Assembly (NCBI RefSeq): GCF_022846255.1
Contig: NZ_AP025682.1
Strand: one strand, 5' to 3'
DNA: 64,000 bases
Origin: Escherichia coli
GTDB lineage: Bacteria > Pseudomonadota > Gammaproteobacteria > Enterobacterales > Enterobacteriaceae
Notes under the pieces: model-generated
The model's input: the letters and a program-made list of their open reading frames with translations, nothing else
The model's database searches: none
What the model was told of the DNA's origin: nothing
Part shown: in pieces, positions 158 through 61,365 of the stretch
Numbering within the stretch: the first letter of the stretch is position 1
Layout of the letters: every line of letters begins with the position of its first letter
Position numbers and translations under genes: made by a program

Positions 158-195
158 ATTTTCAATCTGACAGCCAGTAATGGCTGTCATCATTG

Positions 196-2744: not shown

Positions 2745-2963
2745 TTCCGCCACTCTGTGCCGGTTTACTGCACCGGCACATTCCCCCTCCGGCAAAATTT
2801 GTCCAACCTGTTGTACTCAATAAGAAAAAATCCGTGCGCTGATTCACAAATTTGTGCGTAATTTCTCCAGTCCGCTGGACGAGAAACGGGATTTGATGCG
2901 CTTCACAATTTTACTCCCCCTGAGCAACGAGACTGATTCCAGTATCTAAGACTGGAGTCCAGT

Positions 2964-3746: not shown

Positions 3747-3760
3747 CAATGGAGAACATC

Positions 3761-4966
3761 ATGACCCTACCAAAAATCAAACAGGTTCGCGCCTGGTTTA
3801 CTGGCGGTGCGACAGCAGAAAAAGGCGCTGGCGGCGGTGATTATCACGACCAGGGGGCGAATCACTGGATTGATGATCATATTGCCACCCCGATGAGTAA
3901 ATACCGCGAATACGAGCAGTCCCGCCAGTCATTTGGCATTAACGTTCTTGGCACGTTGATTGTTGAAGTTGAAGCAGAAAACGGCCAGACCGGATTCGCC
4001 GTTTCGACAGCCGGTGAAATGGGTTGTTTTATTGTCGAAAAACATCTTAACCGTTTCATTGAGGGTAAATGCGTCAGTGATATCAAACTGATCCACGATC
4101 AAATGCTCAATGCCACCCTGTATTACTCCGGCTCTGGTGGCCTGGTGATGAATACGATTTCCTGTGTCGATCTGGCTCTGTGGGATCTGTTCGGCAAAGT
4201 GGTCGGGCTTCCGGTTTATAAACTTTTAGGCGGCGCAGTTCGTGATGAGATTCAGTTCTACGCCACAGGTGCGCGTCCGGATCTGGCAAAAGAGATGGGC
4301 TTTATCGGTGGCAAAATGCCGACGCACTGGGGGCCACATGATGGCGATGCGGGGATCCGCAAAGATGCCGCTATGGTCGCGGATATGCGTGAAAAATGCG
4401 GTGAGGATTTCTGGTTAATGCTCGACTGCTGGATGAGTCAGGACGTGAACTATGCCATCAAACTGGCCCACGCTTGCGCGCCCTATAACCTGAAATGGAT
4501 CGAAGAGTGCCTGCCGCCACAGCAGTATGAAGGTTATCGCGAACTGAAACACAACGCACCAGCGGGGATGATGGTCACCAGCGGTGAGCACCACGGCACA
4601 CTGCAATCTTTCCGTACGCTTTCAGAAACCGGTATCGACATTATGCAGCCGGATGTTGGCTGGTGCGGTGGCTTAACCACGCTGGTGGAAATTGCCGCAA
4701 TCGCCAAATCCAGGGGGCAACTGGTGGTGCCGCACGGTTCGTCTGTTTACTCCCACCATGCGGTGATCACCTTCACCAATACGCCATTCAGCGAATTCCT
4801 GATGACCAGCCCGGATTGTTCAACGATGCGTCCGCAATTTGATCCGATTCTGCTTAATGAGCCAGTGCCGGTGAATGGTCGTATTCATAAATCAGTGCTT
4901 GATAAACCCGGTTTCGGCGTCGAACTCAATCGTGACTGCAATTTGAAACGCCCCTACAGCCACTAA
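3761..4966 (+). CDS. rhmD: L-rhamnonate dehydratase (enolase superfamily), 401 aa
   Basis: ATG 3761 with SD ggag 3751-3754; length matches K-12 RhmD; ORF-track start 3749 adds MENI. Confidence 0.85.
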
Positions 4967-5022
4967 TCATTCCGGGCGTTGCTGTGACAACGGTAACGCC
5001 CACATATTCTAAGGAGCTTTTT

Positions 5023-6312: not shown

Positions 6313-6328
6313 ATAGTTAAGGAACACG

Positions 6329-7132
6329 ATGAACGCATTATTAACCAATCCCTTTAAAGAACGTTTACGCAAGGGCGAAGTGCAAATTGGTCTGTGGTTA
6401 AGCTCAACGACTGCCTATATGGCAGAAATTGCCGCCACTTCCGGTTATGACTGGTTGCTGATTGACGGGGAGCATGCGCCAAACACCATTCAGGATCTTT
6501 ATCACCAGCTACAGGCGGTAGCGCCCTATGCCAGCCACCCCGTGATCCGTCCGGTGGAAGGCAGTAAGCCGCTGATTAAACAAGTCCTGGATATTGGCGC
6601 GCAAACTCTACTGATCCCAATGGTCGATACTGCCGATCAGGCACGTCAGGTGGTGTCTGCCACGCGCTATCCTCCCTACGGTGAGCGTGGTGTTGGGGCC
6701 AGTGTGGCACGGGCTGCGCGCTGGGGACGCATTGAGAATTACATGGCGCAAGTCAACGATTCGCTTTGTCTGTTGGTGCAGGTGGAAAGTAAAACGGCAC
6801 TGGATAACCTGGACGAAATCCTCGATGTTGAAGGGATTGATGGCGTGTTTATTGGACCTGCGGATCTTTCTGCGTCGTTGGGCTACCCGGATAACGCCGG
6901 GCACCCGGAAGTGCAGCGAATTATTGAAACCAGCATTCGGCGGATCCGTGCTGCGGGTAAAGCGGCTGGTTTTCTGGCTGTGGCTCCTGATATGGCGCAG
7001 CAATGCCTGGCGTGGGGAGCGAACTTTGTCGCTGTTGGCGTTGACACGATGCTCTACAGCGATGCCCTGGATCAACGACTGGCGATGTTTAAATCAGGCA
7101 AAAATGGGCCACGCGTAAAAGGTAGTTATTGA
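6329..7132 (+). CDS. rhmA: 2-keto-3-deoxy-L-rhamnonate aldolase (HpcH/HpaI family), 267 aa
   Basis: Protein recognised; last gene of rhm operon. Confidence 0.85.
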
Positions 7133-7172
7133 TATCAAAGGCCCATGGGGATCGGCTGTGGGCCTGTGTTAA

Positions 7173-7346
7173 TTAGTGGTTATTCGCTGCCAGATCGGCT
7201 TCGCTTAGCTGAGTGGCCGCGAGCACCTGATCACGATCAATGCCCTGCTCCAGCATGCGCAAAGCAATTTTAATGGCTTGTTCATGCATGCCTTCCTGCC
7301 AGCCAATTTGATGTCCTTCCTGCCGTAGCCGTTCAGCAATAGTCAT
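7173..7346 (-). CDS. ypaA: Small Rpn C-terminal-domain-only protein (RpnE/YpaA-like), 57 aa
   Basis: Hand-translated: [57 protein letters not shown]; paralogous to the last ~75 aa of the adjacent yfaD product; same SD-containing sequence attaatctctcctttt precedes it; below the 60-aa ORF-track cutoff. Confidence 0.6.
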   Translation of the reverse strand: MTIAERLRQEGHQIGWQEGMHEQAIKIALRMLEQGIDRDQVLAATQLSEADLAANNH

Positions 7347-7358
7347 TAATCTCTCCTT

Positions 7359-8318
7359 TTAATGACCGTTCGGAATATCAGCATCAGTGAGTTGGGTTGT
7401 CGCCAGCACAATCTCACGTTCAAAGCCCTGTTCCAGCATGCGCAAGGCAATTTTAATGGCTTGTTCATGCATACCTTCTACTTTGCCTTTCTGCAAACCC
7501 TCCAATTTCCCCTCCTGCCAGCCTTCTAATTTACCTTCCTGCCAGCCAATTTGATGTCCTTCCTGCCGCAGCCGTTCAGCAATAGTCATTAATCTCTCCT
7601 TTTGTAGTGGTGAACGTTCGGCAATCTCCTCAATAAAACGGGTGAAACGGGAGGTATCGCCGCATTGCAGCAGATAATTAAACAGCGTTTGTAGCTGGCT
7701 GTCATTAGTGAAGCCTCTAACCAAAAGCGTGGTAATCCTGTCGACCATACCGATTAAATCGCGGTCGCGAATATGCTTTTGAATCAGTTCCAGCAGAGCT
7801 ATACGCCGATGTTGCATGATCTCATCGTCAGGTACGATGGTGATATCCACCAACGGAAAAGCTTCGGTGTACAACTGCCGGGCAAGTTGCGGATCGTCAA
7901 ACTCATCCAGCCAGTTGAGTGAGTACGGGTAGGGCGAGGTTTCGCCATGATAAAACAGCAATGGTACCACCAGCGGAACTCTGTCATAGCCTTTATCCAG
8001 GTGACGTTGCATGGCGGCAGTGGCATAGCGCATTAGTCGAAAAGCCATATTCTTTTCTGCAGAACTTTGATGTTCAATCACGCAGTAGATATAGCCGTCA
8101 CCGTCGCTGGTTTCCACCGACCACAAAACATCCGAGTAGTAAGCGCGTAAACTTTTTTCAATAAAGCTGGTGGGTTCCAGGCGTAAGGTTTGCAGGTTGC
8201 AAAGCTTGCGCAGCGGCTCTGGCAGATGTATTTCGAGAAAATCTCGCGCCGTATCGGGCGAGAACATAAAGGTTTTAAATACCGCATCATGCGGGGAGGA
8301 GGTTGTTGATTCGGTCAT
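7359..8318 (-). CDS. yfaD: Recombination-promoting nuclease RpnB (PD-(D/E)XK, transposase_31/YhgA-like family), 319 aa
   Basis: N-terminus [17 protein letters not shown] typical of Rpn/YhgA family; C-terminal xxEG tetrapeptide repeats. Confidence 0.8.
7473..7544 (-). repeat. In-frame tandem repeat inside yfaD encoding [24 protein letters not shown] (three 24-bp units)
   Basis: Read directly from codons 7473-7544; the ypaA copy has only one WQEG unit. Confidence 0.7.
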
Positions 8319-8511
8319 GGTTGTCCGTCACCTGATGTTTATGATGACGCGACATTACGGTTATCCCAGGCCTTTGACATCTGCCAGTTTCAGCCTTTGC
8401 GAGACGTTTTCAGAGGAATTTTCACTGCGTTGCAACGTATACATTGAGCGCGGAATCGTGGACGCAAAAATGCCCGGTAACAACATGCTTACCGGGCATC
8501 AGATGGGAGTT

Positions 8512-12576
<4,065 letters not shown>

Positions 12577-12848
12577 TGTTATCCCTCTGAAGTTCGTTTT
12601 TTACCATTTAGCCATAGTAAAAACATGAATTGTTTGATTTCGCGCATATTCGCTCATAATTCGAAAGTGAAACGTGATTTCATGCGTCATTTTGAACATT
12701 CTGTAAATCTTATTTAATAATGTGTGCGGTAATTCACATTTAATTTCTGAATGTTTTCTTAACATCGCGGCAACTCAAGAAACGGCAGGTTCTCCCACTG
12801 AATCAGGCTGTTAATCATAAATAAGACCACGGGCCACGGAGGCTTTCA
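12577..12848. promoter_or_regulatory. Divergent glpACB / glpTQ control region
   Basis: 272-bp AT-rich spacer between divergent glpA and glpT starts; contains a CRP-like site and tandem ttcgc-containing repeats (tttcgcgcat attcgctcat aattcgaaag) resembling GlpR operator half-sites. Confidence 0.6.
12723..12738. promoter_or_regulatory. CRP-binding site candidate (TGTGC-N6-TCACA)
   Basis: tgtgcggtaattcaca matches the CRP consensus TGTGA-N6-TCACA with one mismatch. Confidence 0.55.
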
Positions 12849-14207
12849 ATGTTGAGTATTTTTAAACCAGCGCCACACAAAGCGCGCTTACCTGCCGCGG
12901 AGATCGATCCGACTTATCGTCGATTGCGCTGGCAAATTTTCCTGGGGATATTCTTTGGCTATGCTGCTTACTATTTGGTTCGTAAGAACTTTGCGCTTGC
13001 TATGCCTTACCTGGTCGAGCAGGGATTCTCACGCGGTGATTTAGGTTTCGCGCTTTCTGGGATCTCGATCGCTTATGGATTTTCGAAATTCATCATGGGC
13101 TCGGTGTCGGATCGCTCGAATCCGCGCGTTTTCCTGCCCGCAGGTTTGATTCTGGCGGCGGCAGTGATGTTGTTTATGGGCTTTGTGCCGTGGGCGACGT
13201 CGAGCATTGCGGTGATGTTTGTACTGTTGTTCCTCTGCGGTTGGTTCCAGGGGATGGGGTGGCCGCCGTGTGGTCGTACTATGGTGCACTGGTGGTCGCA
13301 GAAAGAACGTGGCGGCATTGTGTCAGTGTGGAACTGTGCGCACAACGTCGGTGGTGGTATTCCGCCGCTGCTGTTCCTGCTGGGGATGGCCTGGTTCAAT
13401 GACTGGCACGCGGCGCTCTATATGCCCGCTTTCTGCGCCATTCTGGTGGCACTGTTCGCCTTTGCGATGATGCGCGATACCCCGCAATCTTGTGGCCTGC
13501 CGCCGATCGAAGAGTACAAAAATGATTATCCGGACGACTATAACGAAAAAGCGGAACAGGAACTGACTGCGAAGCAAATCTTCATGCAGTACGTGCTGCC
13601 GAACAAATTGCTGTGGTACATCGCTATCGCCAACGTGTTCGTTTATCTGCTGCGTTACGGCATCCTCGACTGGTCACCGACTTATCTGAAAGAGGTGAAA
13701 CACTTCGCGCTGGATAAATCCTCCTGGGCCTACTTCTTCTATGAGTATGCGGGCATTCCGGGCACCCTGCTGTGCGGCTGGATGTCGGATAAAGTCTTCC
13801 GTGGCAACCGTGGGGCCACCGGCGTCTTCTTTATGACACTGGTGACCATCGCGACTATCGTTTACTGGATGAACCCGGCAGGTAACCCAACCGTAGATAT
13901 GATTTGTATGATTGTTATCGGCTTCCTGATCTACGGCCCTGTGATGCTGATCGGTCTGCATGCGCTGGAACTGGCACCGAAAAAAGCGGCAGGTACGGCA
14001 GCGGGCTTTACCGGGCTGTTTGGTTACCTCGGCGGTTCGGTGGCGGCGAGCGCGATTGTTGGCTACACCGTGGACTTCTTCGGCTGGGATGGCGGCTTTA
14101 TGGTAATGATTGGCGGCAGCATTCTCGCGGTTATCTTGTTGATTGTTGTGATGATTGGCGAAAAACGTCGCCATCAGGAATTACTGCAAAAACGCAACGG
14201 AGGCTAA
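12849..14207 (+). CDS. glpT: Glycerol-3-phosphate:phosphate antiporter (MFS), 452 aa
   Basis: Protein recognised; 452 aa. Confidence 0.9.
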
Positions 14208-14211
14208 TGGC

Positions 14212-15288
14212 ATGAAATTGACGCTGAAAAACCTTAGCATGGCGATCATGATGAGCACTATGGTCATGGGAAGTAGTGCAATGGCGGCGGACAGCAACGA
14301 AAAAATAGTCATCGCCCATCGCGGTGCCAGTGGATATTTGCCGGAGCATACGCTGCCAGCAAAAGCGATGGCTTATGCGCAGGGAGCGGATTATCTGGAA
14401 CAGGATTTGGTGATGACGAAGGACGACCATCTGGTTGTCCTGCATGACCATTATCTCGATCGTGTTACTGATGTTGCCGATCGTTTCCCGGATCGGGCGC
14501 GCAAAGACGGTCGTTACTACGCGATAGATTTCACGCTCGATGAAATTAAGTCACTGAAATTTACCGAAGGTTTCGATATTGAAAACGGTAAGAAAGTACA
14601 GACTTATCCGGGGCGTTTCCCGATGGGTAAATCTGACTTCCGGGTACACACTTTCGAAGAAGAGATTGAATTTGTTCAGGGGTTAAATCACTCTACCGGG
14701 AAAAATATCGGTATCTATCCAGAAATTAAAGCGCCGTGGTTCCATCATCAGGAAGGGAAGGATATTGCGGCAAAAACGCTGGAAGTGCTGAAGAAATATG
14801 GTTACACCGGTAAGGACGACAAAGTTTATTTGCAATGTTTTGATGCTGATGAGCTGAAGCGTATTAAGAATGTGCTGGAACCCAAAATGGGTATGGATCT
14901 CAATCTGGTACAGCTGATTGCCTATACCGACTGGAATGAAACGCAGCAGAAACAGCCGGACGGAAGCTGGGTTAATTACAACTACGACTGGATGTTTAAG
15001 CCGGGGGCCATGAAACAGGTGGCGGAATATGCTGATGGTATTGGTCCGGATTACCATATGTTGATTGAGGAGACATCGCAGCCGGGTAATATCAAACTCA
15101 CTGGCATGGTGCAAGATGCTCAGCAGAACAAGCTGGTAGTGCATCCTTATACCGTGCGGTCAGATAAACTGCCTGAATACACTACTGATGTGAATCAGTT
15201 ATATGATGCTCTGTATAACAAAGCGGGTGTAAATGGGCTATTTACTGATTTCCCTGATAAGGCAGTAAAATTCCTTAATAAAGAGTAA
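14212..15288 (+). CDS. glpQ: Periplasmic glycerophosphodiester phosphodiesterase, 358 aa
   Basis: ATG 14212 with SD ggagg 14199-14203 inside glpT 3' end; signal peptide MKLTLKNLSMAIMMSTMVMGSSAMA; ORF-track start 14155 is an extension. Confidence 0.9.
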   Translation: MKLTLKNLSMAIMMSTMVMGSSAMAADSNEKIVIAHRGASGYLPEHTLPAKAMAYAQGADYLEQDLVMTKDDHLVVLHDHYLDRVTDVADRFPDRARKDGRYYAIDFTLDEIKSLKFTEGFDIENGKKVQTYPGRFPMGKSDFRVHTFEEEIEFVQGLNHSTGKNIGIYPEIKAPWFHHQEGKDIAAKTLEVLKKYGYTGKDDKVYLQCFDADELKRIKNVLEPKMGMDLNLVQLIAYTDWNETQQKQPDGSWVNYNYDWMFKPGAMKQVAEYADGIGPDYHMLIEETSQPGNIKLTGMVQDAQQNKLVVHPYTVRSDKLPEYTTDVNQLYDALYNKAGVNGLFTDFPDKAVKFLNKE

Positions 15289-15490
15289 ATTAACTACCGG
15301 ATGGCACTTATGTGCTATCCGATACCACTCTTCATTAAAGTCTGTGGGTTATCCTTAATTGCAATTATTTTGAGCGAGATGACTTGTTCCCGGCATAAGA
15401 TACTCGTCAATACAACACGTATTATTAAGATTTTCCTCAGCTAAACATCTATAGTCATTGTCGTTAATAAAAAACGACAGGCGATAGGGT

Positions 15491-16141
15491 ATGGCAGTTT
15501 CAGCAAAGCACGACGAATTTAATCACTGGTGGGCAACAGAGGGCGACTGGGTTGAAGAGCCTAACTATCGCCGTAATGGTATGAGCGGGGTGCAATGCGT
15601 CGAGCGCAACGGCAAAAAGCTGTATGTAAAGCGCATGACGCATCATCTGTTTCATTCCGTACGTTATCCGTTCGGCCGACCAACGATTGTCCGTGAGGTT
15701 GCGGTAATTAAAGAACTGGAACGGGCCGGTGTCATCGTGCCGAAGATCGTTTTTGGTGAAGCGGTGAAAATTGAGGGTGAATGGCGCGCGTTGCTGGTGA
15801 CTGAAGATATGGCGGGGTTCATCAGCATTGCTGACTGGTATGCCCGGCATGCAGTATCGCCTTATTCTGACGAAGTACGGCAAGCCATGTTGAAAGCAGT
15901 GGCGCTGGCGTTTAAGAAAATGCATAGCGTTAATCGTCAGCATGGCTGTTGTTATGTTCGCCATATCTATGTGAAAACAGAAGGTAAGGCAGAAGCTGGA
16001 TTTCTTGACCTGGAGAAAAGTCGTCGCCGCTTGCGTCGTGATAAAGCGATTAATCATGACTTCCGCCAGCTGGAAAAATATCTGGAGCCGATCCCCAAAG
16101 CGGACTGGGAGCAGGTGAAAGCATATTACTACGCTATGTAA
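15491..16141 (+). CDS. inaA: Acid-inducible Kdo/WaaP-family kinase-like protein InaA, 216 aa
   Basis: Protein recognised. Confidence 0.85.
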   Translation: MAVSAKHDEFNHWWATEGDWVEEPNYRRNGMSGVQCVERNGKKLYVKRMTHHLFHSVRYPFGRPTIVREVAVIKELERAGVIVPKIVFGEAVKIEGEWRALLVTEDMAGFISIADWYARHAVSPYSDEVRQAMLKAVALAFKKMHSVNRQHGCCYVRHIYVKTEGKAEAGFLDLEKSRRRLRRDKAINHDFRQLEKYLEPIPKADWEQVKAYYYAM

Positions 16142-16150
16142 TCGTTGTAG

Positions 16151-16182
16151 GCCAGATAAGACGTATAAGCGTCGTATCTGGC
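16151..16182. repeat. REP-like palindrome between convergent inaA and yfaE
   Basis: gccagataagacg-tataag-cgtcgtatctggc: 13-bp arms with one mismatch; no adjacent U-run. Confidence 0.5.
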
Positions 16183-16194
16183 GTTAAAACCAAT

Positions 16195-16449
16195 TCACAT
16201 CTCGATTTCAATATCGCCTTTTGCCCGGCAACAACAGGGCAAAATTTCCCCCGGCTGAATAAAAGCTAACGGTTCGGCAATCCAGTCCACCTGGCCTGCG
16301 ACCAGTCGGGTGCGACAGGAGCCGCAGTAACCTTCGCGGCACTGGTACTCAACCGCCACATTGTGGGATTCCAGCGCCGCCAGAAGGGAAGGGTGTTCAT
16401 CCTGGCACAGCAGTTGTGTGCCAGTAATGCGCAGGGTAACGCGGGCCAT
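16195..16449 (-). CDS. yfaE: 2Fe-2S ferredoxin YfaE (NrdB cofactor maintenance), 84 aa
   Basis: Cys-rich ferredoxin; start overlaps nrdB stop by 1 nt (TGATG). Confidence 0.85.
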   Translation of the reverse strand: MARVTLRITGTQLLCQDEHPSLLAALESHNVAVEYQCREGYCGSCRTRLVAGQVDWIAEPLAFIQPGEILPCCCRAKGDIEIEM

Positions 16450-17579
16450 CAGAGCTGGAAGTTACTCAAATCGTCGGTGTCCACTTCCGCGTCAATCTGC
16501 CCGACCAGATAAGAACTGACTTCCACTTCCTGCGGAGCAACCTGCACGTTATCAGACACCAGCCAGGTGTTGATCCACGGGATCGGGTTGGAACGCGTCT
16601 GGAACGGCAGATCCAAACCGACTGCCTGCATACGGATATTGGTGATGTATTCAACGTACTGGCAGAGGATGTCTTTATTCAGACCAATCATCGAACCATC
16701 ACGGAACAGATAATCCGCCCAGTCTTTCTCTTGCTGTGCCGCCTGGACAAACAGGTCATAGCACTCCTGCTTACATTCTTCGGCAATTTCCGCCATCTCC
16801 GGATCATCCGCGCCGCTGCGCAGCAGATTCAGCATATGCTGGGTGCCGGTCAGGTGCAGGGCTTCGTCACGGGCAATCAGGCGAATAATCTTGGCGTTGC
16901 CTTCCATCAATTCGCGTTCTGCAAAGGCAAAGGAACAAGCAAAGCTGACGTAGAAACGAATCGCTTCCAGCGCGTTAACGCTCATCAGGCAGAGATACAG
17001 TTTTTTCTTCAGCTCGCGCAGGCTGACGGTCACGGTTTTACCGTTGACGGTGTGGGTGCCTTCGCCCAGCAAATGCCAGTAGCTGGTCATCTCGATCAGT
17101 TCATCGTAATAGCGGGAAATGCCTTCTGCGCGTTTCTGGATCTGCTCGTTAGTGACGATATCGTCAAACACAACCGACGGATCGTTAACGATATTACGAA
17201 TGATATGAGTATAGGAACGGGAATGAATCGTTTCTGAGAACGCCCAGGTTTCTACCCAGGTTTCCAGTTCCGGGATCGAGATCAGCGGCAGCAGTGCCAC
17301 GTTCGGACTGCGACCCTGAATGGAATCCAGCAGCGTCTGATATTTCAGGTTGCTGATAAAGATGTGTTTTTCGTGTTCAGGCAGTGCCTGGTAATCGATA
17401 CGGTCGCGGGAGACGTCAACTTCTTCCGGACGCCAGAAGAAAGAGAGCTGCTTTTCGATCAGCTTTTCGAAGATGTCATATTTTTGCTGATCGTAGCGAG
17501 CCACGTTGACCGGCTGACCAAAGAACATCGGTTCTTTGAGCTGATCATTTTTCGTCTGTGAAAAGGTGGTATATGCCAT
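16449..17579 (-). CDS. nrdB: Class Ia ribonucleotide reductase beta subunit, 376 aa
   Basis: Starts [17 protein letters not shown]; ORF-track start 17723 is an extension through REP sequence. Confidence 0.9.
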
Positions 17580-17602
17580 GAATGTGTCCTGTTGGGAGTT
17601 TA

Positions 17603-17718
17603 ATGCCGGATAAGGCATTTTACGCCGCATCCTGTGCCTGATGCGACGCTGGCGCATCTTATCAGGCCTACAAAACCGAGCCGTAGGCCGGATAAGGCGT
17701 TCACGCCGCATCCTGCAT
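17603..17718. repeat. REP/BIME cluster in nrdA-nrdB intergenic region
   Basis: gccggataaggc...gccgcatc and gcctgatgcgacgc...cttatcaggcctac palindromic REP units. Confidence 0.8.
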
Positions 17719-17725
17719 CTCAATA

Positions 17726-20011
17726 TCAGATCTTACATGCGCCGCTTTCGCAGCCATCGTCCTGGATTGACGGCACCAGATCGTCTTGTGCGTCTTCAGC
17801 ACCGTCACGGGTGTTCTGATAATACAGCGTTTTGACCCCGAATTTGTAGGCGGTGAGCAGGTCTTTCAGCAGTTGCTGCATCGGCACTTTTCCTGACGGG
17901 AAGCGTGACGGATCGTAGTTGGTGTTAGCAGAGATCGACTGATCGATAAATTTCTGCATGATACCCACCAGTTGCAGGTAGCCATCGTTACCCGGCATTT
18001 CCCACAGCAGTTCATAGGCGTCGTGCAGATGCTCGTAGTCCGGCACCACCTGGCGCAGAATACCGTCTTTCGACGCTTTGATGCTGACGTAACCACGCGG
18101 CGGTTCAATACCGTTAGTGGCGTTAGAGATCTGCGAAGAGGTCTCGGACGGCATCAGGGCAGAAAGCGTGGAGTTACGCAGGCCGTGCGTTTTGATTGAC
18201 TCACGCAGTGCTTCCCAGTCGTAATGCAGCGGCTCATTAGCGATGGCATCCAGATCTTTCTTATAGGTATCGATCGGCAGGATCCCTTTCGCGTAAGTGG
18301 TTTCGTTAAACCACGGGCACGCCCCTTGCTCTTTCGCCAGCTCATTAGACGCTTTCAGCAGGTAATACTGAATGGCTTCGAAGGTTTTATGCGTCAGGTT
18401 GTTGGCGCTGCCGTCGGAGTAGCGTTTACCATGCTTCGCCAGGTAGTAAGCGAAGTTGATCACACCAATACCCAGCGTACGACGACCCATCGCTCCACGT
18501 TTGGCGGCCGGGATCGGGTAATCCTGATAATCCAGCAGCGCGTCGAGTGCGCGTACTGCCAGAATTGCCAGCTCTTCCAGTTCATCCAGGCTGTTAATTG
18601 CGCCCAGGTTGAAAGCAGACAGCGTACACAGCGCGATTTCACCGTTCTCGTCGTTGACGTCGTTCAGCGGTTTGGTCGGCAGGGCGATTTCCAGGCACAG
18701 GTTAGACTGGCGCACTGGCGCGATGGCCGGATCAAACGGGCTATGGGTATTGCAGTGGTCAACGTTCTGAATATAGATACGACCGGTAGATGCACGTTCC
18801 TGCATCATCAGCGAGAACAGCTCAACGGCTTTCACACGCTGCTTGCGGATGCTGTCGTCTTTCTCATATTTGGTGTACAGGCGTTCAAACTCTTCCTGAT
18901 CGGCGAAGAACGCGTCGTACAGCCCCGGTACGTCGGACGGGCTGAATAGGGTGATATCTTCACCTTTCAGCAGACGGGTATACATCAGTTTGTTGATTTG
19001 TACCCCGTAGTCCATATGACGCACGCGGTTGCCTTCCACCCCACGGTTGTTTTTCAACACCAGCAGGCTTTCCACTTCCAGATGCCACATCGGGTAGAAC
19101 AGTGTTGCCGCACCGCCACGCACACCGCCCTGAGAGCAGGATTTCACCGCTGTCTGGAAATGTTTGTAGAACGGAATACAACCGGTATGGAACGCTTCGC
19201 CACCGCGAATCGGGCTACCCAGCGCACGAATACGCCCGGCGTTGATGCCGATCCCGGCACGCTGGGAAACGTATTTAACAATCGCGCTGGAGGTGGCGTT
19301 AATGGAATCCAGGCTGTCGCCGCACTCGATCAGCACGCATGAGCTGAACTGACGAGTCGGGGTACGCACGCCGGACATGATTGGCGTCGGCAGCGAAATT
19401 TTAAATGTGGAAACCGCGTCGTAAAAACGCTTCACGTATTGCAGGCGCGTTTCACGCGGGTAGTTCGAGAACAGGCACGCGGCAACCAGAATATAAAGGA
19501 ACTGGGCGCTTTCGTAGATTTCGCCGGTCACGCGGTTCTGTACCAGATATTTGCCTTCCAGCTGCTTAACGGCAGCATAAGAGAAGGTCATATCACGGTC
19601 GTGATCGATAAACGTGTCCATCTGCTTGAACTCTTCTTCCGTGTAGTCTTCCAGCAGATGATTATCGTATTTGCCCATCTCGACCATTTTCACCACATGG
19701 TCGTACAGTGCAGGCGGCTCAAACTGACCGTAGGCTTTTTTACGCAGGTGGAAGATCGCCAGACGTGCGGCGAGATACTGATAATCCGGCGCATCACGGG
19801 AGATCAGGTCTGCGGCAGCCTTGATAATGGTTTCGTGGATGTCAGAGGTCTTGATACCGTCATAAAACTGAATGTGGGAGCGCAGCTCGACCTGGGAAAT
19901 CGAAACGTTATGCAGTCCTTCTGCCGCCCAATCCAGAACGCGATGGATTTTGTCGAGATTGATGCGCTCTGTGCTACCGTCGCGCTTTGTCACCAGCAGA
20001 TTCTGATTCAT
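17726..20011 (-). CDS. nrdA: Class Ia ribonucleotide reductase alpha subunit, 761 aa
   Basis: 761 aa; ATP-cone N-terminus; C-terminal Cys pair. Confidence 0.95.
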
Positions 20012-20692: not shown

Positions 20693-23600
20693 ATGCGGAT
20701 TATCTCTCTACGCAAGGAGTATTTATCTTTACTCCCGTCAATGATTGCATCTCTTTTCTCTGCTAACGGTGCCGCAGCGGTCATTGATTCATGCCAGGGA
20801 TATGATATCAAAGCGAGCTGTCAGGCCAGCAGGCAAAGCCTTTCGGGTAATATACAGGACTGGAGCATCGCGGATGGACAATGGTTGATTTTTTCGGGTA
20901 TGGTCAATAATACCAGCGGTGGCGCAGTATTTTTGCAGCACAGTGCTGAATTTACGATATCACCACAAAATGAAACAGGGATGACCCTGTTTGCTGATAA
21001 CTCGGTTAGTGGCGAATATAATAATGGTGGGGCTATCTTTGCTAAAGAAAACTCAACGATAAATCTTGCGAATGTTATTTTCGACAGTAATGTTGCAGGA
21101 GGCTATGGCGGAGCAATCTATTCTGCCGGTACCAATGATACCGGTGCCGCCGATTTACGTGTCACTAACGCCGTATTTCACAATAACATCGCTAATGACG
21201 GCAAAGGCGGTGCAATTTATACCATCAATAATGACGTCTATTTAAGTGATGATGCTTTTAATAATAATCAGGCATATACATCAACCAGCTATAGTGATGG
21301 GGACGGCGGTGCCATTGATGTTACGGATAATAGTACGGATAACACACATCTTTCAGGAAAAACGATAATTAATAATACCTCCTTTACCAATAACTATGCA
21401 GAAGGTTATGGCGGAGCAATTTATACCAGCAGCACCACATCCCCGTATCTTATTGATATTTCTGTTGATGATAATTATGACCAAAACAATGGTGTGATGA
21501 TTGATGAAAATAACAGCGCCTCGGGATATGACCATTCGGCGACGGCAGCGGCGGGGGGCTTTATGTATATCGGTCATAGTGTGGCTGAATTTAACATTGC
21601 CGCCGATAAAACGCTGGTAATAGGCAACACCAGCAACGATGGTGCGATTGATTCTCTTGCCGGAACGGGAGTCATCGTGAAAGAGGGAGCGGGAGAGTTA
21701 GTCCTCAATGCCGACAATAATGCGTTTACCGGCGAGATGAGTATCCAGAATGGCGAGGTGACGCTGGGGCGCAGCGATGAGTTAATGAATGTCGGCGACA
21801 CGCACTGTCAGAGCGATCCGCAGGATTGCTTTGGTCTGATGGTCGGCAGCACTGTTCATTCTGAGTATCAGGCAGAACTGAATGTTGGCAATACACAACA
21901 AACGTTTGTGCACTCATTAACCGGTTTTGCTAATGGCATTTTGAATATCGACGCAGGCGGCAATGTTACCGTAAACCAGGGCGGTTTTTCCGGCTCGATT
22001 CAGGGTGAAGGACAGTTGACGGTAGCGCAAGATGGCAGCTATCTCCTGACAGGGGCGCAGTCGATGGCATTAACCGGCGATATTGTGGTGGAAGATAACG
22101 CCGTATTGTCGCTAGCGGGGAATCAGGCCGATTTACGGGCAATGCAGAGCGATCCGCAATCGATCGTGCTAAATGGCGGAGTATTGGATCTCTCTGATTT
22201 CACCACCTGGGATGGCGATAGCTCATACAATGACGGTCTGCAAATCAGCGGCAGCGGGGGGACAGTGATTGGCAGTAATGATGTCGTTGATATCAGCAGT
22301 GGCGATGATTTACATATTGGCGGCAGTGATGCCAGCCAGAATGGCGTTTATGTCGTCATTAATGCGGGGGATCAGCGCGTAACGCTGGCGAATAACAACG
22401 GTTATCTCGGTAATACGCAAATCGCCTCCGGTACGCTTGAAGTCAGCGATAATTCGCAATTGGGGGACACAAGTTACAACCGTTCAGTGATCTTCACAGA
22501 TCCCCAACAACACAGTGAAATGGATGTGACGACTGATGTTGACACTCGCTCGGCTACAACAGGTCAGGGCAGGAATATTGAAATGCGCGCTGATGGCGAA
22601 ATACACGTTGAGGATGGCGTAGATACGCAATGGGGCGGATTGATGGCGGATAGTACCGGGCAACAACTGGATAGCGTAAGCACGTTGACTAAAAGTGGCG
22701 GCGGTACGCTGGAGTTGACCGCCAGCGGCACTGCGACGTCTGCGGTACGTGTGGAGGACGGAACGCTAAAAGGTGAAGCGGAGAATATTATTCCTTATGT
22801 TTCTTCACTGTGGGTGGGGGAAGACGGTGTTTTTGAAACCGGGCAAAATCAGGATATTCGCTCAATCGATGCCACCTCTGGCGGCGATATCGACATAACC
22901 GATGGTACTGTGTTGCGATTGACGCAGCAGGATACGAACCAGGTGCTGGATGCCTCGCTGTTTAGCGGCGACGGTACGCTGGTGAATGCCACCGATGGCG
23001 TGACGCTGGCAGGTGAGCTTAATACCAACCTTGAAACTGACAGCCTGACTTATCTTTCCGACGTGACGGTCAATGGTGATCTAACTAATACTTCCGGTGC
23101 TGTCAGTCTGCAAAATGGCGTCGCTGGCGACACGCTCACGGTAAACGGTGATTACATCGGTGGCGGTACGTTGTTTCTCGACAGCGAATTAAACGGCGAT
23201 GACTCGGCAAGCGACCAACTGGTGTTGAACGGCAATACCTCGGGTAACACGACCGTGGTGGTTAACCCCATTACTGGCATTGGTGAACCGACATCTACAG
23301 GTATTAAAGTGGTTGATTTCGCAGCTGATCCCGCGCAGTTTCAAAACAATGCGCAGTTCAGTCTGGCAGGAAGCGGCTACGTCAATATGGGGGCGTATGA
23401 CTACACGCTGGTGGAAGATAACAACGACTGGTATCTGCGATCACAAGAAGTCAATCCGACGCCGCCGCCCGATCCAGACCCGACTCCAGATCCTGATCCC
23501 ACGCCGGATCCCGACCCAACCCCCGACCCAACCCCCGACCCGGAACCTACGCCTGCCTACCAGCCGGTGTTGAATGCCAAAGTTGGTGGATATTTTAATA

Positions 23601-24485: not shown

Positions 24486-24567
24486 GCCGGATGCGGCGTA
24501 AACGCCTTATCTGGCCTACGGGGAGCATTTGTAGGTCTGATAAGACGCGGCAAGCGCCGCATCAGGC
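24486..24567. repeat. REP/BIME element between yfaL and ubiG
   Basis: gccggatgcggcgtaaacgccttatctggcctac ... gtaggtctgataagacgcggcaagcgccgcatcaggc. Confidence 0.8.
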
Positions 24568-46453: not shown

Positions 46454-49303
46454 TTGAAATACCTTGCTTCTTTTCGTACAACCCTGAAAGCCTCGCGCTA
46501 CATGTTCAGAGCATTGGCGTTAGTGCTCTGGCTGTTGATTGCTTTTTCATCCGTTTTTTACATCGTTAATGCGTTACATCAGCGAGAATCGGAAATTCGT
46601 CAGGAATTTAATCTGAGTTCCGATCAGGCTCAGCGCTTTATTCAACGCACCTCTGATGTGATGAAAGAGCTGAAGTACATAGCTGAAAATCGCTTATCGG
46701 CAGAAAACGGTGTGCTTTCCCCGCGTGGACGAGAAACGCAGACGGATGTGCCTGCGTTTGAACCGCTGTTTGCTGACTCTGATTGTTCCGCAATGAGTAA
46801 CACCTGGCGAGGTTCTCTGGAGTCATTGGCGTGGTTTATGCGCTACTGGCGCGATAATTTTTCTGCGGCTTACGATCTAAACCGGGTATTTTTAATCGGC
46901 AGCGATAACCTCTGCATGGCTAATTTCGGTCTGCGTGATATGCCAGTGGAACGCGATACCGCGTTAAAAGCTTTGCATGAACGCATTAATAAATATCGAA
47001 ATGCACCACAAGATGATAGTGGCAGTAACCTCTACTGGATCAGCGAAGGTCCGCGCCCTGGCGTCGGGTATTTTTACGCCTTGACGCCAGTTTATCTGGC
47101 GAACCGGTTGCAGGCGCTTTTGGGTGTCGAGCAAACCATCCGGATGGAGAACTTTTTCTTACCTGGTACGTTGCCGATGGGGGTTACCATTCTTGATGAA
47201 AATGGTCATACCCTGATTTCGCTTACCGGACCAGAAAGCAAAATTAAGGGCGATCCTCGCTGGATGCAGGAACGCTCCTGGTTTGGCTATACGGAAGGGT
47301 TCCGGGAGCTGGTGCTGAAGAAAAATCTGCCACCCTCATCGCTAAGCATCGTGTATTCGGTGCCGGTTGATAAGGTGCTGGAACGCATTCGCATGTTGAT
47401 CCTTAACGCAATTTTGCTGAATGTGCTTGCCGGAGCTGCATTGTTTACTCTCGCGCGGATGTACGAGCGGCGTATTTTCATTCCGGCGGAAAGCGACGCC
47501 TTGCGACTGGAAGAACATGAGCAGTTTAATCGCAAGATTGTCGCCTCCGCGCCAGTGGGTATCTGCATTTTGCGTACCGCTGATGGCGTCAATATTTTAA
47601 GTAACGAACTGGCGCATACCTATCTCAATATGCTTACGCATGAGGATCGCCAACGGCTGACACAAATTATCTGTGGGCAGCAGGTCAATTTTGTTGATGT
47701 CCTGACCAGCAACAATACCAATCTGCAAATCAGCTTCGTCCATTCGCGCTATCGTAATGAAAACGTGGCCATTTGTGTGCTTGTGGATGTTTCTTCGCGC
47801 GTGAAGATGGAAGAGTCGTTGCAGGAGATGGCACAAGCAGCGGAACAGGCGAGTCAGTCAAAATCGATGTTCCTTGCCACCGTCAGTCATGAGCTGCGAA
47901 CGCCGCTGTATGGCATTATCGGTAACCTGGATCTGTTGCAAACCAAAGAGTTACCGAAAGGCGTCGATCGTCTGGTGACGGCAATGAACAACTCTTCCAG
48001 CCTGTTGTTGAAAATTATCAGCGATATTCTCGATTTCTCGAAGATTGAATCGGAACAGTTGAAGATCGAACCGCGTGAGTTTTCACCGCGTGAAGTGATG
48101 AACCACATCACCGCCAACTATTTACCGCTGGTGGTACGCAAGCAGTTAGGCTTGTACTGCTTTATTGAACCGGATGTGCCAGTGGCCTTAAATGGCGACC
48201 CGATGCGTTTACAGCAGGTCATCTCCAACCTGTTGAGTAACGCCATAAAATTCACCGATACCGGCTGTATAGTTTTGCATGTTCGCGCTGATGGCGATTA
48301 TCTCTCTATCCGTGTTCGCGATACCGGCGTGGGGATTCCGGCGAAAGAAGTCGTGCGCTTGTTTGATCCCTTCTTCCAGGTCGGAACGGGCGTACAGCGA
48401 AACTTCCAGGGGACCGGTCTGGGTCTGGCGATTTGTGAAAAACTGATCAGCATGATGGACGGCGATATCTCGGTAGATTCAGAACCGGGAATGGGCAGCC
48501 AGTTTACCGTGCGTATTCCGTTGTACGGCGCTCAGTACCCGCAGAAAAAAGGCGTGGAAGGGTTGAGTGGTAAACGCTGCTGGCTGGCGGTCCGCAATGC
48601 GTCGCTCTGTCAGTTCCTGGAAACCAGTTTGCAGCGCAGCGGCATCGTCGTTACAACATACGAAGGGCAGGAACCGACTCCCGAAGATGTGTTAATCACT
48701 GACGAGGTAGTGAGCAAAAAATGGCAGGGTAGAGCGGTAGTGACCTTCTGTCGTCGCCATATTGGTATTCCGCTGGAGAAAGCGCCAGGGGAGTGGGTAC
48801 ACAGTGTGGCTGCCCCGCATGAGCTACCGGCATTGTTGGCGCGTATTTATTTGATCGAGATGGAGAGCGATGATCCTGCTAACGCTCTGCCGTCGACGGA
48901 CAAAGCGGTCAGCGATAACGACGATATGATGATTCTGGTCGTGGATGATCATCCGATTAACCGGCGTCTTCTGGCAGATCAGTTGGGATCGTTGGGCTAT
49001 CAATGTAAAACCGCGAATGATGGCGTCGATGCGCTTAATGTACTTAGCAAGAATCATATTGATATCGTGCTTAGCGACGTCAACATGCCAAATATGGATG
49101 GTTACCGCTTGACGCAACGCATTCGTCAGTTGGGACTGACGTTGCCGGTTATCGGAGTAACTGCTAATGCGTTGGCTGAAGAGAAGCAGCGGTGTCTGGA
49201 GTCCGGTATGGACAGCTGCCTGTCGAAGCCGGTAACGCTGGATGTGATAAAACAGACGCTAACGGTATATGCCGAGAGGGTCAGGAAATCGCGGGATTCG
49301 TAG
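46454..49303 (+). CDS. rcsC: Hybrid sensor kinase RcsC, 949 aa (TTG start) or 933 aa from ATG 46502
   Basis: HisKA/HATPase plus C-terminal receiver; the ORF-track start is TTG. Confidence 0.9.
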   Translation: MKYLASFRTTLKASRYMFRALALVLWLLIAFSSVFYIVNALHQRESEIRQEFNLSSDQAQRFIQRTSDVMKELKYIAENRLSAENGVLSPRGRETQTDVPAFEPLFADSDCSAMSNTWRGSLESLAWFMRYWRDNFSAAYDLNRVFLIGSDNLCMANFGLRDMPVERDTALKALHERINKYRNAPQDDSGSNLYWISEGPRPGVGYFYALTPVYLANRLQALLGVEQTIRMENFFLPGTLPMGVTILDENGHTLISLTGPESKIKGDPRWMQERSWFGYTEGFRELVLKKNLPPSSLSIVYSVPVDKVLERIRMLILNAILLNVLAGAALFTLARMYERRIFIPAESDALRLEEHEQFNRKIVASAPVGICILRTADGVNILSNELAHTYLNMLTHEDRQRLTQIICGQQVNFVDVLTSNNTNLQISFVHSRYRNENVAICVLVDVSSRVKMEESLQEMAQAAEQASQSKSMFLATVSHELRTPLYGIIGNLDLLQTKELPKGVDRLVTAMNNSSSLLLKIISDILDFSKIESEQLKIEPREFSPREVMNHITANYLPLVVRKQLGLYCFIEPDVPVALNGDPMRLQQVISNLLSNAIKFTDTGCIVLHVRADGDYLSIRVRDTGVGIPAKEVVRLFDPFFQVGTGVQRNFQGTGLGLAICEKLISMMDGDISVDSEPGMGSQFTVRIPLYGAQYPQKKGVEGLSGKRCWLAVRNASLCQFLETSLQRSGIVVTTYEGQEPTPEDVLITDEVVSKKWQGRAVVTFCRRHIGIPLEKAPGEWVHSVAAPHELPALLARIYLIEMESDDPANALPSTDKAVSDNDDMMILVVDDHPINRRLLADQLGSLGYQCKTANDGVDALNVLSKNHIDIVLSDVNMPNMDGYRLTQRIRQLGLTLPVIGVTANALAEEKQRCLESGMDSCLSKPVTLDVIKQTLTVYAERVRKSRDS

Positions 49304-49497
49304 GACGGATAAGGCGTTTACGCCGCATCTGGCATTCAGTGCAAATGCCAGATGCGACGCTGACGTGTCTTATCTGGCCTACTTTAATGTAATCTGTTGA
49401 AATAATGGGAATCGTAGGACGGATAAGGCGTTTACGCCGCATCCGGCAATCGGTGCAAATGCCAGATAAGACACTAACGCGTCTTATCTGGCCTACA
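49304..49497. repeat. REP/BIME cluster between convergent rcsC and rcsB
   Basis: Two copies of cgtaggacggataaggcgtttacgccgcatc (about 49297 and 49412) plus inverted partners ending cttatctggcctac. Confidence 0.8.
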
Positions 49498-49502
49498 GGT
49501 GA

Positions 49503-50153
49503 TTAGTCTTTATCTGCCGGACTTAACGTCACTGAAGAGAGATAATTCAGCAGAGCAATATCGTTCTCGACACCCAGCTTCATCATCGCAGATTTCTTCT
49601 GGCTACTGATGGTTTTGATACTGCGGTTCAGCTTTTTAGCGATCTCGGTCACCAGGAAACCTTCCGCAAACAGGCGTAGAACTTCACTCTCTTTTGGCGA
49701 GAGACGCTTGTCACCGTAACCACCAGCACTGATTTTTTCCAACAGGCGAGAAACGCTTTCCGGGGTAAATTTCTTCCCTTTCTGCAGCGCGGCGAGAGCT
49801 TTCGGCAGATCGGTCGGTGCACCTTGTTTCAGCACGATCCCTTCGATATCCAGATCCAATACCGCACTAAGAATCGCCGGGTTGTTGTTCATGGTCAGAA
49901 CAATGATCGACAGGCTTGGGAAATGGCGCTTGATGTACTTGATTAAGGTAATGCCATCGCCGTACTTATCGCCAGGCATGGAGAGATCGGTAATCAACAC
50001 ATGCGCATCCAGTTTCGGCAGGTTGTTGATCAGTGCTGTAGAGTCTTCAAATTCGCCGACAACATTCACCCACTCAATTTGCTCAAGTGATTTGCGAATA
50101 CCGAACAAGACTATCGGATGGTCATCGGCAATAATTACGTTCATATTGTTCAT
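49503..50153 (-). CDS. rcsB: Response regulator RcsB (LuxR/FixJ family), 216 aa
   Basis: Starts MNNMNVIIADDHPIVLFGIRKSL; ORF-track start 50198 is an extension. Confidence 0.9.
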   Translation of the reverse strand: MNNMNVIIADDHPIVLFGIRKSLEQIEWVNVVGEFEDSTALINNLPKLDAHVLITDLSMPGDKYGDGITLIKYIKRHFPSLSIIVLTMNNNPAILSAVLDLDIEGIVLKQGAPTDLPKALAALQKGKKFTPESVSRLLEKISAGGYGDKRLSPKESEVLRLFAEGFLVTEIAKKLNRSIKTISSQKKSAMMKLGVENDIALLNYLSSVTLSPADKD

Positions 50154-53153: not shown

Positions 53154-53246
53154 AAAAAAAACCGGATGCGAGGCATCCGGTTGAAATAGGGGTAAACAGA
53201 CATTCAGAAATGAATGACGGTAATAAATAAAGTTAATGATGATAGC
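53154..53246 (-). ncRNA. micF: MicF antisense sRNA (93 nt), repressor of ompF translation
   Basis: Minus strand reads GCTATCATCATTAACTTTATTTATTACCGTCATTCATTTCTGAATGTCTGTTTACCCCTATTTCAACCGGATGCCTCGCATCCGGTTTTTTTT, ending in a hairpin plus U8 terminator; divergent from ompC. Confidence 0.9.
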
Positions 53247-53401
53247 GGGAGATATTCTAGTTGCGAGTGAAGGTTTTGTTTTGACATTCAGTGCTGTCAA
53301 ATACTTAAGAATAAGTTATTGATTTTAACCTTGAATTATTATTGCTTGATGTTAGGTGCTTATTTCGCCATTCCGCAATAATCTTAAAAAGTTCCCTTAT
53401 A

Positions 53402-61236: not shown

Positions 61237-61365
61237 ATGTGCCACATCCGGCATGGTATGCCGGATGTGGCGTATGCAGATAAGACGCGTCAGCGTCGCA
61301 TCAGGCAACCGGCTCGGGCGTTAGATGTCGGATGCGGCGTAACCGCCTTATCCGACCTGGCGGTT
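61237..61365. repeat. REP/BIME cluster between mqo and eco
   Basis: gatgtgccacatccggcatggtatgccggatgtggcg ... gatgtcggatgcggcgtaaccgccttatccgacctggcgg. Confidence 0.8.

What the first reader, a model, noticed from the sequence alone, without database searches (positions are those of the whole stretch)
49288..49500. Duplicated REP module between convergent rcsC and rcsB
The approximately 35-bp unit cgtaggacggataaggcgtttacgccgcatc occurs twice, about 115 bp apart, each with an inverted partner, forming a compound BIME that fills the whole convergent intergenic space. Such structures act as transcription barriers and mRNA stabilisers and are local recombination substrates. Similar clusters lie at 17603-17718, 24486-24567 and 61237-61365.
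Basis: seen in the sequence. Interest (0 to 1): 0.2.

Follow-up and report, generated by a model that had tools for sequence, protein, structure and literature searches.

The report
Tandem REP (BIME-2) array between rcsC/rcsB
The 199-bp gap between the converging E. coli genes rcsC and rcsB is filled by two tandem copies of a well-known repetitive palindromic element (a BIME-2 array of four REP hairpins), which published 3'-end mapping in K-12 places at the end of the rcsC mRNA; it is real but ordinary.

Summary
The window is E. coli. rcsC (+, 46454-49303) and rcsB (-, 49503-50153) converge on a 199-bp spacer that holds two 114-bp tandem units. Each unit is a Y REP, an 11-nt linker and an inverted Z2 REP, which is the BIME-2 architecture. 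Both units exceed the Rfam gathering score for naRNA4 (RF02564), the model built on the REP325 BIME-2 unit.

It includes a diverged copy of the last 15 nt of rcsC, so it is a local tandem duplication. The rcsC stop codon lies inside the first REP's GTAG, and the rcsB stop is 6 nt from the last REP.

Unit number varies from 1 to 4 among 5,426 E. coli genomes, with mosaic recombinant units. The two-unit form is also in E. albertii. Other genera carry a short hairpin with flanking A and T runs, or their own REPs, at this site.

Published K-12 Term-seq puts an abundant 3' end on the rcsC strand 1 nt past the distal REP. Rho-dependent termination lies about 150 nt beyond the array on both strands. 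The array therefore looks like a 3'-end protector, not a transcription stop.

This is a known kind of element and of low interest.

The parts
46454..49303 (+). rcsC coding sequence. The stop codon TAG (49301-49303) lies inside the GTAG of the first REP.
   Evidence: ORF list; RefSeq annotation of an identical sequence; sequence
49285..49299 (+). Last 15 nt of rcsC before the stop (GAAATCGCGGGATTC). This is the left end of repeat copy 1.
   Evidence: family D1. The K(S/T/A)RES C-terminus is ancestral in other genera.
49300..49334 (+). Unit 1 Y-type REP, GTAG-first on the + strand
   Evidence: Its hairpin is -12.2 kcal/mol alone.
49335..49345 (.). Unit 1 short head-to-head linker (TTCAGTGCAAA)
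   Evidence: The architecture matches the REP325 Y-linker-Z2 unit.
49346..49382 (-). Unit 1 Z2-type REP (GTAG-first on the - strand), with the usual stem mismatch
49383..49413 (.). 31-bp AT-rich tail-to-tail spacer specific to this locus. Its last 15 nt (49399-49413, GAAATAATGGGAATC) are a diverged copy of the rcsC 3' tail.
   Evidence: found once per genome only at this locus; not a general BIME-2 flank
49414..49448 (+). Unit 2 Y-type REP
49449..49459 (.). Unit 2 short linker (ATCGGTGCAAA)
49460..49496 (-). Unit 2 Z2-type REP whose outer stem has become a perfect palindrome (GATAAGAC/GTCTTATC)
   Evidence: I3: 12 nt, 100%; -20.3 kcal/mol; comparison with other lineages
49303..49379 (+). Rfam naRNA4 (RF02564) match, unit 1: 70.0 bits against a gathering score of 59.5
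49417..49493 (+). Rfam naRNA4 (RF02564) match, unit 2: 73.7 bits
49497..49497 (+). Position equivalent to the K-12 Term-seq 3' end at 2316833 (- strand in K-12), 1 nt past the distal REP. I read it as the rcsC transcript end.
   Evidence: Adams et al. 2021, PMC7815308, Supplementary file 1, two conditions. The coordinate transfer is mine.
49503..50153 (-). rcsB coding sequence. The stop codon (49503-49505) is 6 nt from the foot of the distal REP.

Best explanation
This is a BIME-2 array: two tandem 114-bp units, each a Y REP and an inverted Z2 REP joined by a short linker, occupying the whole rcsC-rcsB convergent spacer.

Origin (inferred):
- A REP pair became fixed directly against the rcsC stop codon in an Escherichia ancestor, at a site where other genera carry a short hairpin with flanking A and T runs.
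- A 114-bp tandem duplication then copied the unit together with the last 15 nt of rcsC.
- Unequal recombination between units has since produced alleles with 1 to 4 units.

Action (partly shown in K-12 by published data, partly inferred):
- RNA polymerase from either gene reads through the array.
- Rho terminates about 150 nt further on, inside the antisense of the opposite gene.
- 3'-5' exonucleases trim back to the REP hairpins, leaving a defined, protected 3' end on the rcsC strand at the foot of the distal REP.

The array is a 3'-end protector that took over the site of an intrinsic terminator. It is not itself a terminator.
For: Identity:
- Four REPs with GTAG/CTAC feet alternate in orientation.
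- The unit architecture is the same as REP325 (Y, linker, Z2; 77-nt units).
- Both units pass the Rfam naRNA4 gathering score. REP325 units score 95-111 bits, and another BIME-2 unit scores 69 bits.

Tandem duplication:
- 98 nt at 88% identity with a 114-bp period.
- The similarity extends 15 nt left of GTAG into the rcsC tail: 11 of 15 in the window, 12 of 15 in most strains.
- That tail is ancestral coding sequence. It is not a general BIME-2 flank.
- The spacer occurs only at this locus.

Recombination:
- Alleles with 1, 2 and 3 units were read directly.
- The spacer is present in 4,436 of 5,426 genomes, at 4,471 places, at most 3 per genome.
- The ATCC 25922 single unit is a unit-1/unit-2 chimera, and the QA-1986 630 middle unit is mosaic.

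Age: E. albertii and cryptic Escherichia lineages carry the homologous spacer.

Replacement of a terminator:
- In several other genera the spacer is only 36-60 bp and consists of an A-run, a GC-rich hairpin and a T-run.
- The terminator scan was run on only one of them (L038) and found one site on one strand.
- No terminator-like site is found in the window.

3'-end role:
- K-12 Term-seq has a 3' end at 2316833(-), which equals window 49497, in two conditions.
- Rho termination regions lie at 2317179(+) with Rho score 22 (p 1e-49) and at 2316687(-) with score 2.6.
- The general terminate-downstream-then-trim model is from PMC6061677.
Against: - The transcript data are from K-12, not this strain. 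The alleles differ at a few bases.
- No stable 3' end for rcsB mRNA is listed inside the array, so protection is shown for one strand only.
- Rho regions were called with 800-nt windows, so their positions are coarse.
- BIMEs have themselves been reported to cause Rho-dependent attenuation. This is cited as Espeli et al. 2001, which I did not read.
- The first 16 nt of the spacer cannot be matched convincingly to the rcsB-side flank. The duplication junction is therefore only half reconstructed.
- A neutral, selfish persistence of the element cannot be excluded.
Confidence: 0.8

Rival explanations
1. Translation damper. Both stop codons sit within 15 nt of a REP hairpin (rcsC 0 nt, rcsB 6 nt). 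Terminating ribosomes would stall, leading to tmRNA tagging and mRNA cleavage, which would lower RcsC and RcsB output. Unit-number alleles would then be expression alleles.
For: The distances are read from the sequence. The rule that REPs fewer than 16 nt from a stop codon down-regulate translation comes from Liang et al. 2015, as summarised in PMC12306157. The nrdAB REP model case lies in this same window at 17603-17716.
Against: It has not been tested for rcsC or rcsB. I could not open the primary paper, so I do not know whether these genes were on its list. The REP nearest each stop codon is present in all alleles, so unit number need not change the effect.
Confidence: 0.3
2. Source of naRNA4-like nucleoid-associated RNA. 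The two 77-nt units in the rcsC 3' UTR would be processed into RNAs that bind HU and help bridge cruciform DNA.
For: Both units exceed the Rfam RF02564 gathering score on the rcsC-sense strand. That strand is transcribed through the array in K-12. naRNA4 function is described for REP325.
Against: The scores (70 and 74 bits) are well below those of REP325 units (95-111 bits). Generic BIME-2 units elsewhere also pass, so the model recognises the repeat class, not a function. No internal 3' end between the units is listed. No HU-binding data exist for this locus.
Confidence: 0.1
3. DNA-level gyrase site or topological buffer. BIME-2 binds gyrase, and between two converging genes it would relieve the positive supercoils that both polymerases push into the spacer.
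For: BIME-2 elements are enriched for gyrase cleavage sites, preferentially in Y REPs, independently of transcription (PMC6379681). The location between convergent genes fits.
Against: Only a subset of BIME-2 is cleaved. The held supplementary text of that paper has no entry naming rcsB or rcsC, and one of its files was cut when stored.
Confidence: 0.2
4. Two independent REP-pair insertions side by side, rather than one tandem duplication.
For: REP pairs are dispersed in high copy number. The two units differ at 8 of 83 positions.
Against: The similarity extends beyond the REPs into 15 nt of rcsC-derived flank. A three-unit allele has two identical spacers. A different REP type in another genus forms a 79-bp-period array that also runs 12 nt into rcsC.
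Confidence: 0.05

Closest known systems
BIME-2 (bacterial interspersed mosaic element type 2) of E. coli
   Same: Y and Z2 REPs alternate in orientation. A short head-to-head linker joins them. Units are repeated in tandem. Unit number varies between strains. There is no long linker with an IHF site (definition).
   Different: There are only two units. The 31-bp tail-to-tail spacer is specific to this locus and partly derived from the rcsC coding tail. I could not assign it to the classical s, l or r motifs.
REP325 / naRNA4 (Rfam RF02564), yjdM-yjdN spacer
   Same: The 77-nt Y-linker-Z2 unit and its orientation relative to the upstream gene's transcript are the same. Both units here exceed the gathering score.
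   Different: REP325 has six units with a 100-bp period and a different 23-bp spacer. Its units score 95-111 bits against 70-74 here. HU binding and nucleoid effects have been shown only for REP325.
nrdA-nrdB REP (REP close to a stop codon, model of Liang et al. 2015)
   Same: A REP lies within 15 nt of an upstream stop codon. The case is present in the same window at 17603-17716.
   Different: That case sits between co-directional genes of one operon. Here a convergent pair has a REP against each stop codon, and rcsC's stop lies inside the GTAG itself.
Bidirectional intrinsic terminator between convergent genes
   Same: It occupies the same position in several other Enterobacteriaceae, by sequence inspection. 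It is a hairpin at the 3' ends of both transcripts.
   Different: The Escherichia array has no U-tracts and no terminator-like site. Termination in K-12 is Rho-dependent and lies downstream of the array.

Membership tests
REP (E. coli Y / Z2 classes) | GTAG (or CTAC on the other strand) tetranucleotide at the foot of the palindrome | tested here: met
   All four REPs have it: 49300, 49379-82, 49414, 49493-96.
REP (E. coli Y / Z2 classes) | Imperfect palindrome of about 35 nt with a conserved stem mismatch | tested here: met
   Three of the four keep the mismatch. The distal Z2 has a perfect outer stem, which is a derived state absent from L004, L005, E. albertii and L014.
REP (E. coli Y / Z2 classes) | High copy number dispersed in the genome, in extragenic positions | tested here: met
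   A median of 26 megablast places per E. coli genome for the 301-bp query, and five REP clusters in the window. The first REP overlaps rcsC by its stop codon only.
BIME-2 | Y and Z2 REPs in alternating orientation joined head-to-head by a short linker | tested here: met
   same layout as REP325; definition
BIME-2 | Tandem repetition with s, l or r flanking motifs | tested here: inconclusive
   Two tandem units are present. The spacer is locus-specific and differs from the spacers at REP325, sucB-sucC and phnE-phnD. I did not have the s, l and r consensus sequences.
BIME-2 | Copy number at a locus varies between strains | tested here: met
   1, 2 and 3 units were read directly, and up to 3 spacers occur per genome.
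BIME-2 | Bound and cleaved by DNA gyrase | not testable with these tools
   This is a property of a subset of BIME-2. No entry for this locus was found.
BIME-1 / RIP (IHF-binding BIME) | Y and Z1 REPs separated by a long linker carrying an IHF site | tested here: not met
   The linkers are 11 nt. The only IHF-like match (49390-49402, 1 mismatch) is at chance frequency: 59 found against 52 expected in the window.
naRNA4 (Rfam RF02564) | Covariance-model score above the curated gathering score | tested here: met
   70.0 and 73.7 bits against 59.5, on the + strand. The - strand scores 48.7 and 52.5, below the threshold.
naRNA4 (Rfam RF02564) | Discrete RNA of about 77 nt that binds HU and condenses DNA | not testable with these tools
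   The only evidence is read-through transcription as the rcsC 3' UTR in K-12. No internal 3' end is listed.
Intrinsic (Rho-independent) terminator | GC-rich hairpin followed by a U-tract | tested here: not met
   0 terminator-like sites in 49000-49800 on either strand

The most novel reading that the evidence does not exclude
The unit number of this array (1 in about 18% of E. coli genomes, 2 in most, 3-4 in a few) would act as a heritable expression dial for the Rcs phosphorelay. A REP touches both stop codons and forms the rcsC 3' end, so alleles could differ in RcsC and RcsB levels through ribosome stalling and mRNA stability. That would link a 'junk' repeat polymorphism to capsule and biofilm signalling differences between lineages. 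Alternatively, the rcsC 3' UTR could supply naRNA4-like HU-binding RNAs.
Probability: 0.08. Interest if true: 0.45.

Novelty: already known. Interest (0 to 1): 0.12.

Why it matters
It matters little beyond annotation. REP/BIME-2 arrays are a textbook feature of E. coli intergenic regions, and K-12 carries the same two-unit array at this site.

The locus is nonetheless a tidy worked example of four points:
- A REP array can sit where other genera have a short terminator-like hairpin between convergent genes.
- The 3' end on the rcsC strand maps to the distal REP while Rho acts further downstream.
- Tandem amplification of such units drags along a piece of the neighbouring gene.
- Unequal recombination generates copy-number alleles.

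Two practical consequences follow. Assemblies tend to break here, as the E. albertii contig does. Annotators should also expect a spurious naRNA4 call in the rcsC 3' UTR.

Tried and rejected
- **IHF site in the AT-rich spacer.** TTTCAACAGATTA (49390-49402, - strand) is a one-mismatch match. Such matches occur at chance frequency (59 against 52 expected). No IHF ChIP entry for rcsB or rcsC was found in the supplements I could read.
- **Intrinsic terminator.** None was found.
- **The rcsC C-terminus donated by the element.** Rejected, because K(S/T/A)RES is present in genera without the element.
- **GGGAAT before GTAG as a general BIME-2 flank.** REP325 has GCGGGAATTT there, but sucB-sucC and phnE-phnD do not. 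I treat the REP325 resemblance as coincidence.
- **Gyrase cleavage data for this locus.** Not found.
- **Papers and supplements not held.** The Liang 2015 primary paper was unavailable. So were the supplements of Dar & Sorek 2018, Qian 2015, Ton-Hoang 2012 and Prieto 2012.
- **Named REP feature in K-12.** The RefSeq copies searched carry no REP features, so I could not confirm the element's official REP number.
- **Tandem Repeats Finder.** It did not report the 114-bp repeat. The repeat finder did.
- **Literature search.** A search for rcsC, rcsB and REP together found nothing specific to this locus.
Full report
**Observation**

The window is Escherichia coli. A 301-bp query around the finding is 100% identical to strain 104 and 97.7% identical to K-12. 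It lies between the annotated genes rcsC and rcsB in thousands of genomes.

In the window, rcsC runs 46454-49303 on the + strand and rcsB runs 49503-50153 on the - strand, followed by rcsD. The genes converge on a 199-bp spacer.

Segments 49285-49382 and 49399-49496 align over 98 nt at 88% identity.

Each copy contains two inverted palindromes. The segment folds far better than shuffled controls, with z-scores of -6.3 and -9.3.

**Anatomy**

Each unit consists of three parts:
- a Y-type REP written GTAG-first on the + strand (49300-49334 and 49414-49448);
- an 11-nt linker;
- a Z2-type REP in the opposite orientation (49346-49382 and 49460-49496).

A 31-bp AT-rich spacer (49383-49413) separates the two units. 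This is the Y / short linker / Z2 layout that defines BIME-2. It is also the layout of the 77-nt units of REP325.

Both units exceed the Rfam gathering score for naRNA4 (RF02564), with 70.0 and 73.7 bits against 59.5. They do so only on the rcsC-sense strand, and they are the only such hits in the 64-kb window. For calibration:
- REP325 units score 95-111 bits.
- An unrelated BIME-2 unit between phnE and phnD scores 69 bits.
- The tail-to-tail REP pairs of Salmonella and Citrobacter do not hit.

The Rfam match therefore identifies the repeat class. It does not demonstrate a function.

**Relation to the two genes**

The rcsC stop codon TAG (49301-49303) is part of the first REP's GTAG. The rcsB stop codon (49503-49505) is 6 nt from the foot of the last REP. 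The array fills the spacer completely. No promoter-like or intrinsic-terminator-like site is present.

**Origin**

The similarity between the two copies runs 15 nt to the left of GTAG. GAAATCGCGGGATTC is the end of rcsC, and GAAATAATGGGAATC is the end of the spacer. They match at 11 of 15 positions here and 12 of 15 in most strains.

This tail is ancestral coding sequence. RcsC ends in K(S/T/A)RES in genera that lack the element, for example Pseudocitrobacter and Trabulsiella. It is not a general BIME-2 flank, because the flanks at REP325, sucB-sucC and phnE-phnD differ.

The spacer occurs only at this locus. The simplest reading is one 114-bp tandem duplication that carried the rcsC tail with it. 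That is an inference.

A striking parallel supports this reading. In an unrelated Enterobacteriaceae genome (L040), a different REP type forms a 79-bp-period, 3.2-copy array at the same site, and that array also runs 12 nt into rcsC.

**Evolution of the site**

I compared 76 rcsB-rcsC spacers from other Enterobacteriaceae species.
- Several genera have only 36-60 bp, consisting of an A-run, a GC-rich hairpin and a T-run. By eye this looks like a bidirectional intrinsic terminator.
- I ran the terminator scan on only one of these (Lelliottia, L038). It reported one terminator-like site, on one strand.
- Citrobacter, Salmonella, Buttiauxella and some Kluyvera carry their own REP pairs.
- The Escherichia lineages recovered whole (L013, L014, L019) have the Y/Z2 element abutting rcsC ...TCG TAG. 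The E. albertii contig ends before rcsC.
- E. albertii and two cryptic lineages also carry the homologous spacer.

The two-unit state therefore predates E. coli.

**Polymorphism**

- ATCC 25922 has one unit, K-12 and the window have two, and QA-1986 630 has three with identical spacers.
- Across 5,426 complete genomes, the spacer is found in 4,436, at 4,471 places, with at most three per genome.
- That implies about 18% of genomes with one unit (or a spacer too diverged to match). It also implies at most about 35 genomes with three or four units.
- Units are positional orthologues between strains, differing at 1-2 positions. Units 1 and 2 within the window differ at 8 of 83 positions.
- The ATCC 25922 unit combines a unit-1 Y REP with a unit-2 linker and Z2 REP. 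The middle unit of the three-unit allele is mosaic.

These are the products expected of unequal recombination.

**Function**

Adams et al. 2021 (PMC7815308) list a Term-seq 3' end at 2316833 on the - strand in two growth conditions, with read counts of 40,047 and 29,672.

Both strains have a 199-bp spacer. Transferring coordinates on that basis places this end at window 49497, 1 nt past the distal Z2 REP. The source classifies it only as antisense to rcsB; I assign it to the rcsC transcript because it lies on the rcsC-sense strand 194 nt past the rcsC stop codon. No other 3' end is listed inside the array.

Their Rho-inhibition (bicyclomycin, BCM) data give two termination regions:
- **2317179(+).** Rho score 22, p 1e-49. 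Coverage falls from 274 to 14 without BCM, and goes from 246 to 276 with it.
- **2316687(-).** Rho score 2.6.

These positions lie about 150 nt beyond the array on the rcsB-sense and rcsC-sense strands respectively, inside the antisense of the opposite gene. This fits the general model in which Rho terminates downstream and exonucleases trim back to a stable hairpin, often a REP (PMC6061677).

So the array acts as a 3'-end protector. It is not a transcription barrier in the sense of stopping polymerase. This is shown in K-12 for the rcsC strand and inferred for this strain and for rcsB.

**Details of the hairpins**

In this window, unit 1 folds as one long Y:Z2 hairpin (-45.4 kcal/mol). Unit 2 folds as two separate REP hairpins (-37.6 kcal/mol).

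The difference arises because the distal Z2 REP has lost the usual stem mismatch: GATAAGAC now pairs perfectly with GTCTTATC. In vitro, the equivalent change in a Y REP abolishes TnpA-REP binding and cleavage (PMC3333891). This REP may therefore be immobile. That is an inference.

**Rival and additional roles**

- **Translation damping.** REPs closer than 16 nt to a stop codon are reported to damp translation (Liang et al. 2015). Both genes here qualify by distance, but this has not been tested.
- **Gyrase.** BIME-2 arrays are preferred gyrase sites. No data were found for this locus.
- **naRNA4-like function.** It is possible but unsupported beyond the sequence-class match.
- **IHF.** An IHF-like motif in the spacer is at chance level.

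**Verdict**

This is a correctly observed, correctly interpreted, well-known kind of element (BIME-2) at a locus where K-12 has the same array. It is ordinary and of low interest. The local details are:
- the stop codon sits inside the GTAG;
- the duplication includes the gene tail;
- a terminator-like hairpin occupies this site in other genera;
- copy-number alleles exist;
- the mapped 3' end lies at the distal REP.

Noticed in passing
L040 3239-3490 (Enterobacteriaceae bacterium MGYG-HGUT-00110): The same rcsC-rcsB site holds an independent tandem array of a different REP type (period 79, 3.2 copies). It also extends 12 nt into the rcsC coding end, a parallel to the Escherichia duplication.
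   Followed up: partly
window 17603-17716: This REP cluster (truncated Y, Z1, Y) lies between nrdA (17726-20011, -) and nrdB. It is the nrdAB REP used in the literature as the model for stop-codon-proximal REP control of translation. The Y REP ends 10 nt from the nrdA stop.
   Followed up: partly
window 24486-24567 and 61237-61365: Two further REP clusters. Going by the strain 104 annotation, one lies between convergent yfaL and ubiG and the other between convergent mqo and eco. The first is a tail-to-tail Y/Z pair and the second is degenerate. Neither reaches the naRNA4 gathering score.
   Followed up: partly
window 16147-16182 (-): A solitary Z-like REP about 265 bp downstream of the nrdB stop codon (ORF end at 16449), beyond where yfaE should lie.
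   Followed up: no
window 49460-49496: The distal Z2 REP has lost the conserved stem mismatch and has a perfect 12-bp outer stem. This derived state is shared by K-12, ATCC 25922 and the window. It is absent from strains L6-21 and SCU-482, E. albertii and L014. The equivalent mutation abolishes TnpA-REP binding in vitro.
   Followed up: partly
window 53154-53247 (-): The MicF antisense sRNA gene (Rfam RF00033, 116.8 bits) lies between rcsD and ompC, as expected.
   Followed up: no
window about 1-20000 versus NZ_CP029164.1: The window is identical to strain 104 at rcsC-rcsB. Upstream genes, however, are offset by 1,435 bp (nrdA at 17726 in the window against 19161 in strain 104). This is consistent with the ISNCY-family transposase annotated in strain 104 being absent from the window.
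   Followed up: partly
window 23466-23541: Short tandem repeats with 12-nt and 18-nt periods (CCCGACCCAACC). By the 1,435-bp offset they lie inside the yfaL autotransporter gene.
   Followed up: no
L022 (Leclercia adecarboxylata) and L087 (Mangrovibacter plantisponsor), rcsB-rcsC spacer: The spacers are expanded to 697 bp and 1,193 bp. L087 contains long internal direct repeats. These insertions are of unknown nature.
   Followed up: no
L023 (E. albertii NBRC 107761): The held locus, 200 bp past rcsB, stops inside the upstream unit of the array. The contig range shows this is not the contig terminus, so I cannot tell why the stored stretch stops there.
   Followed up: no
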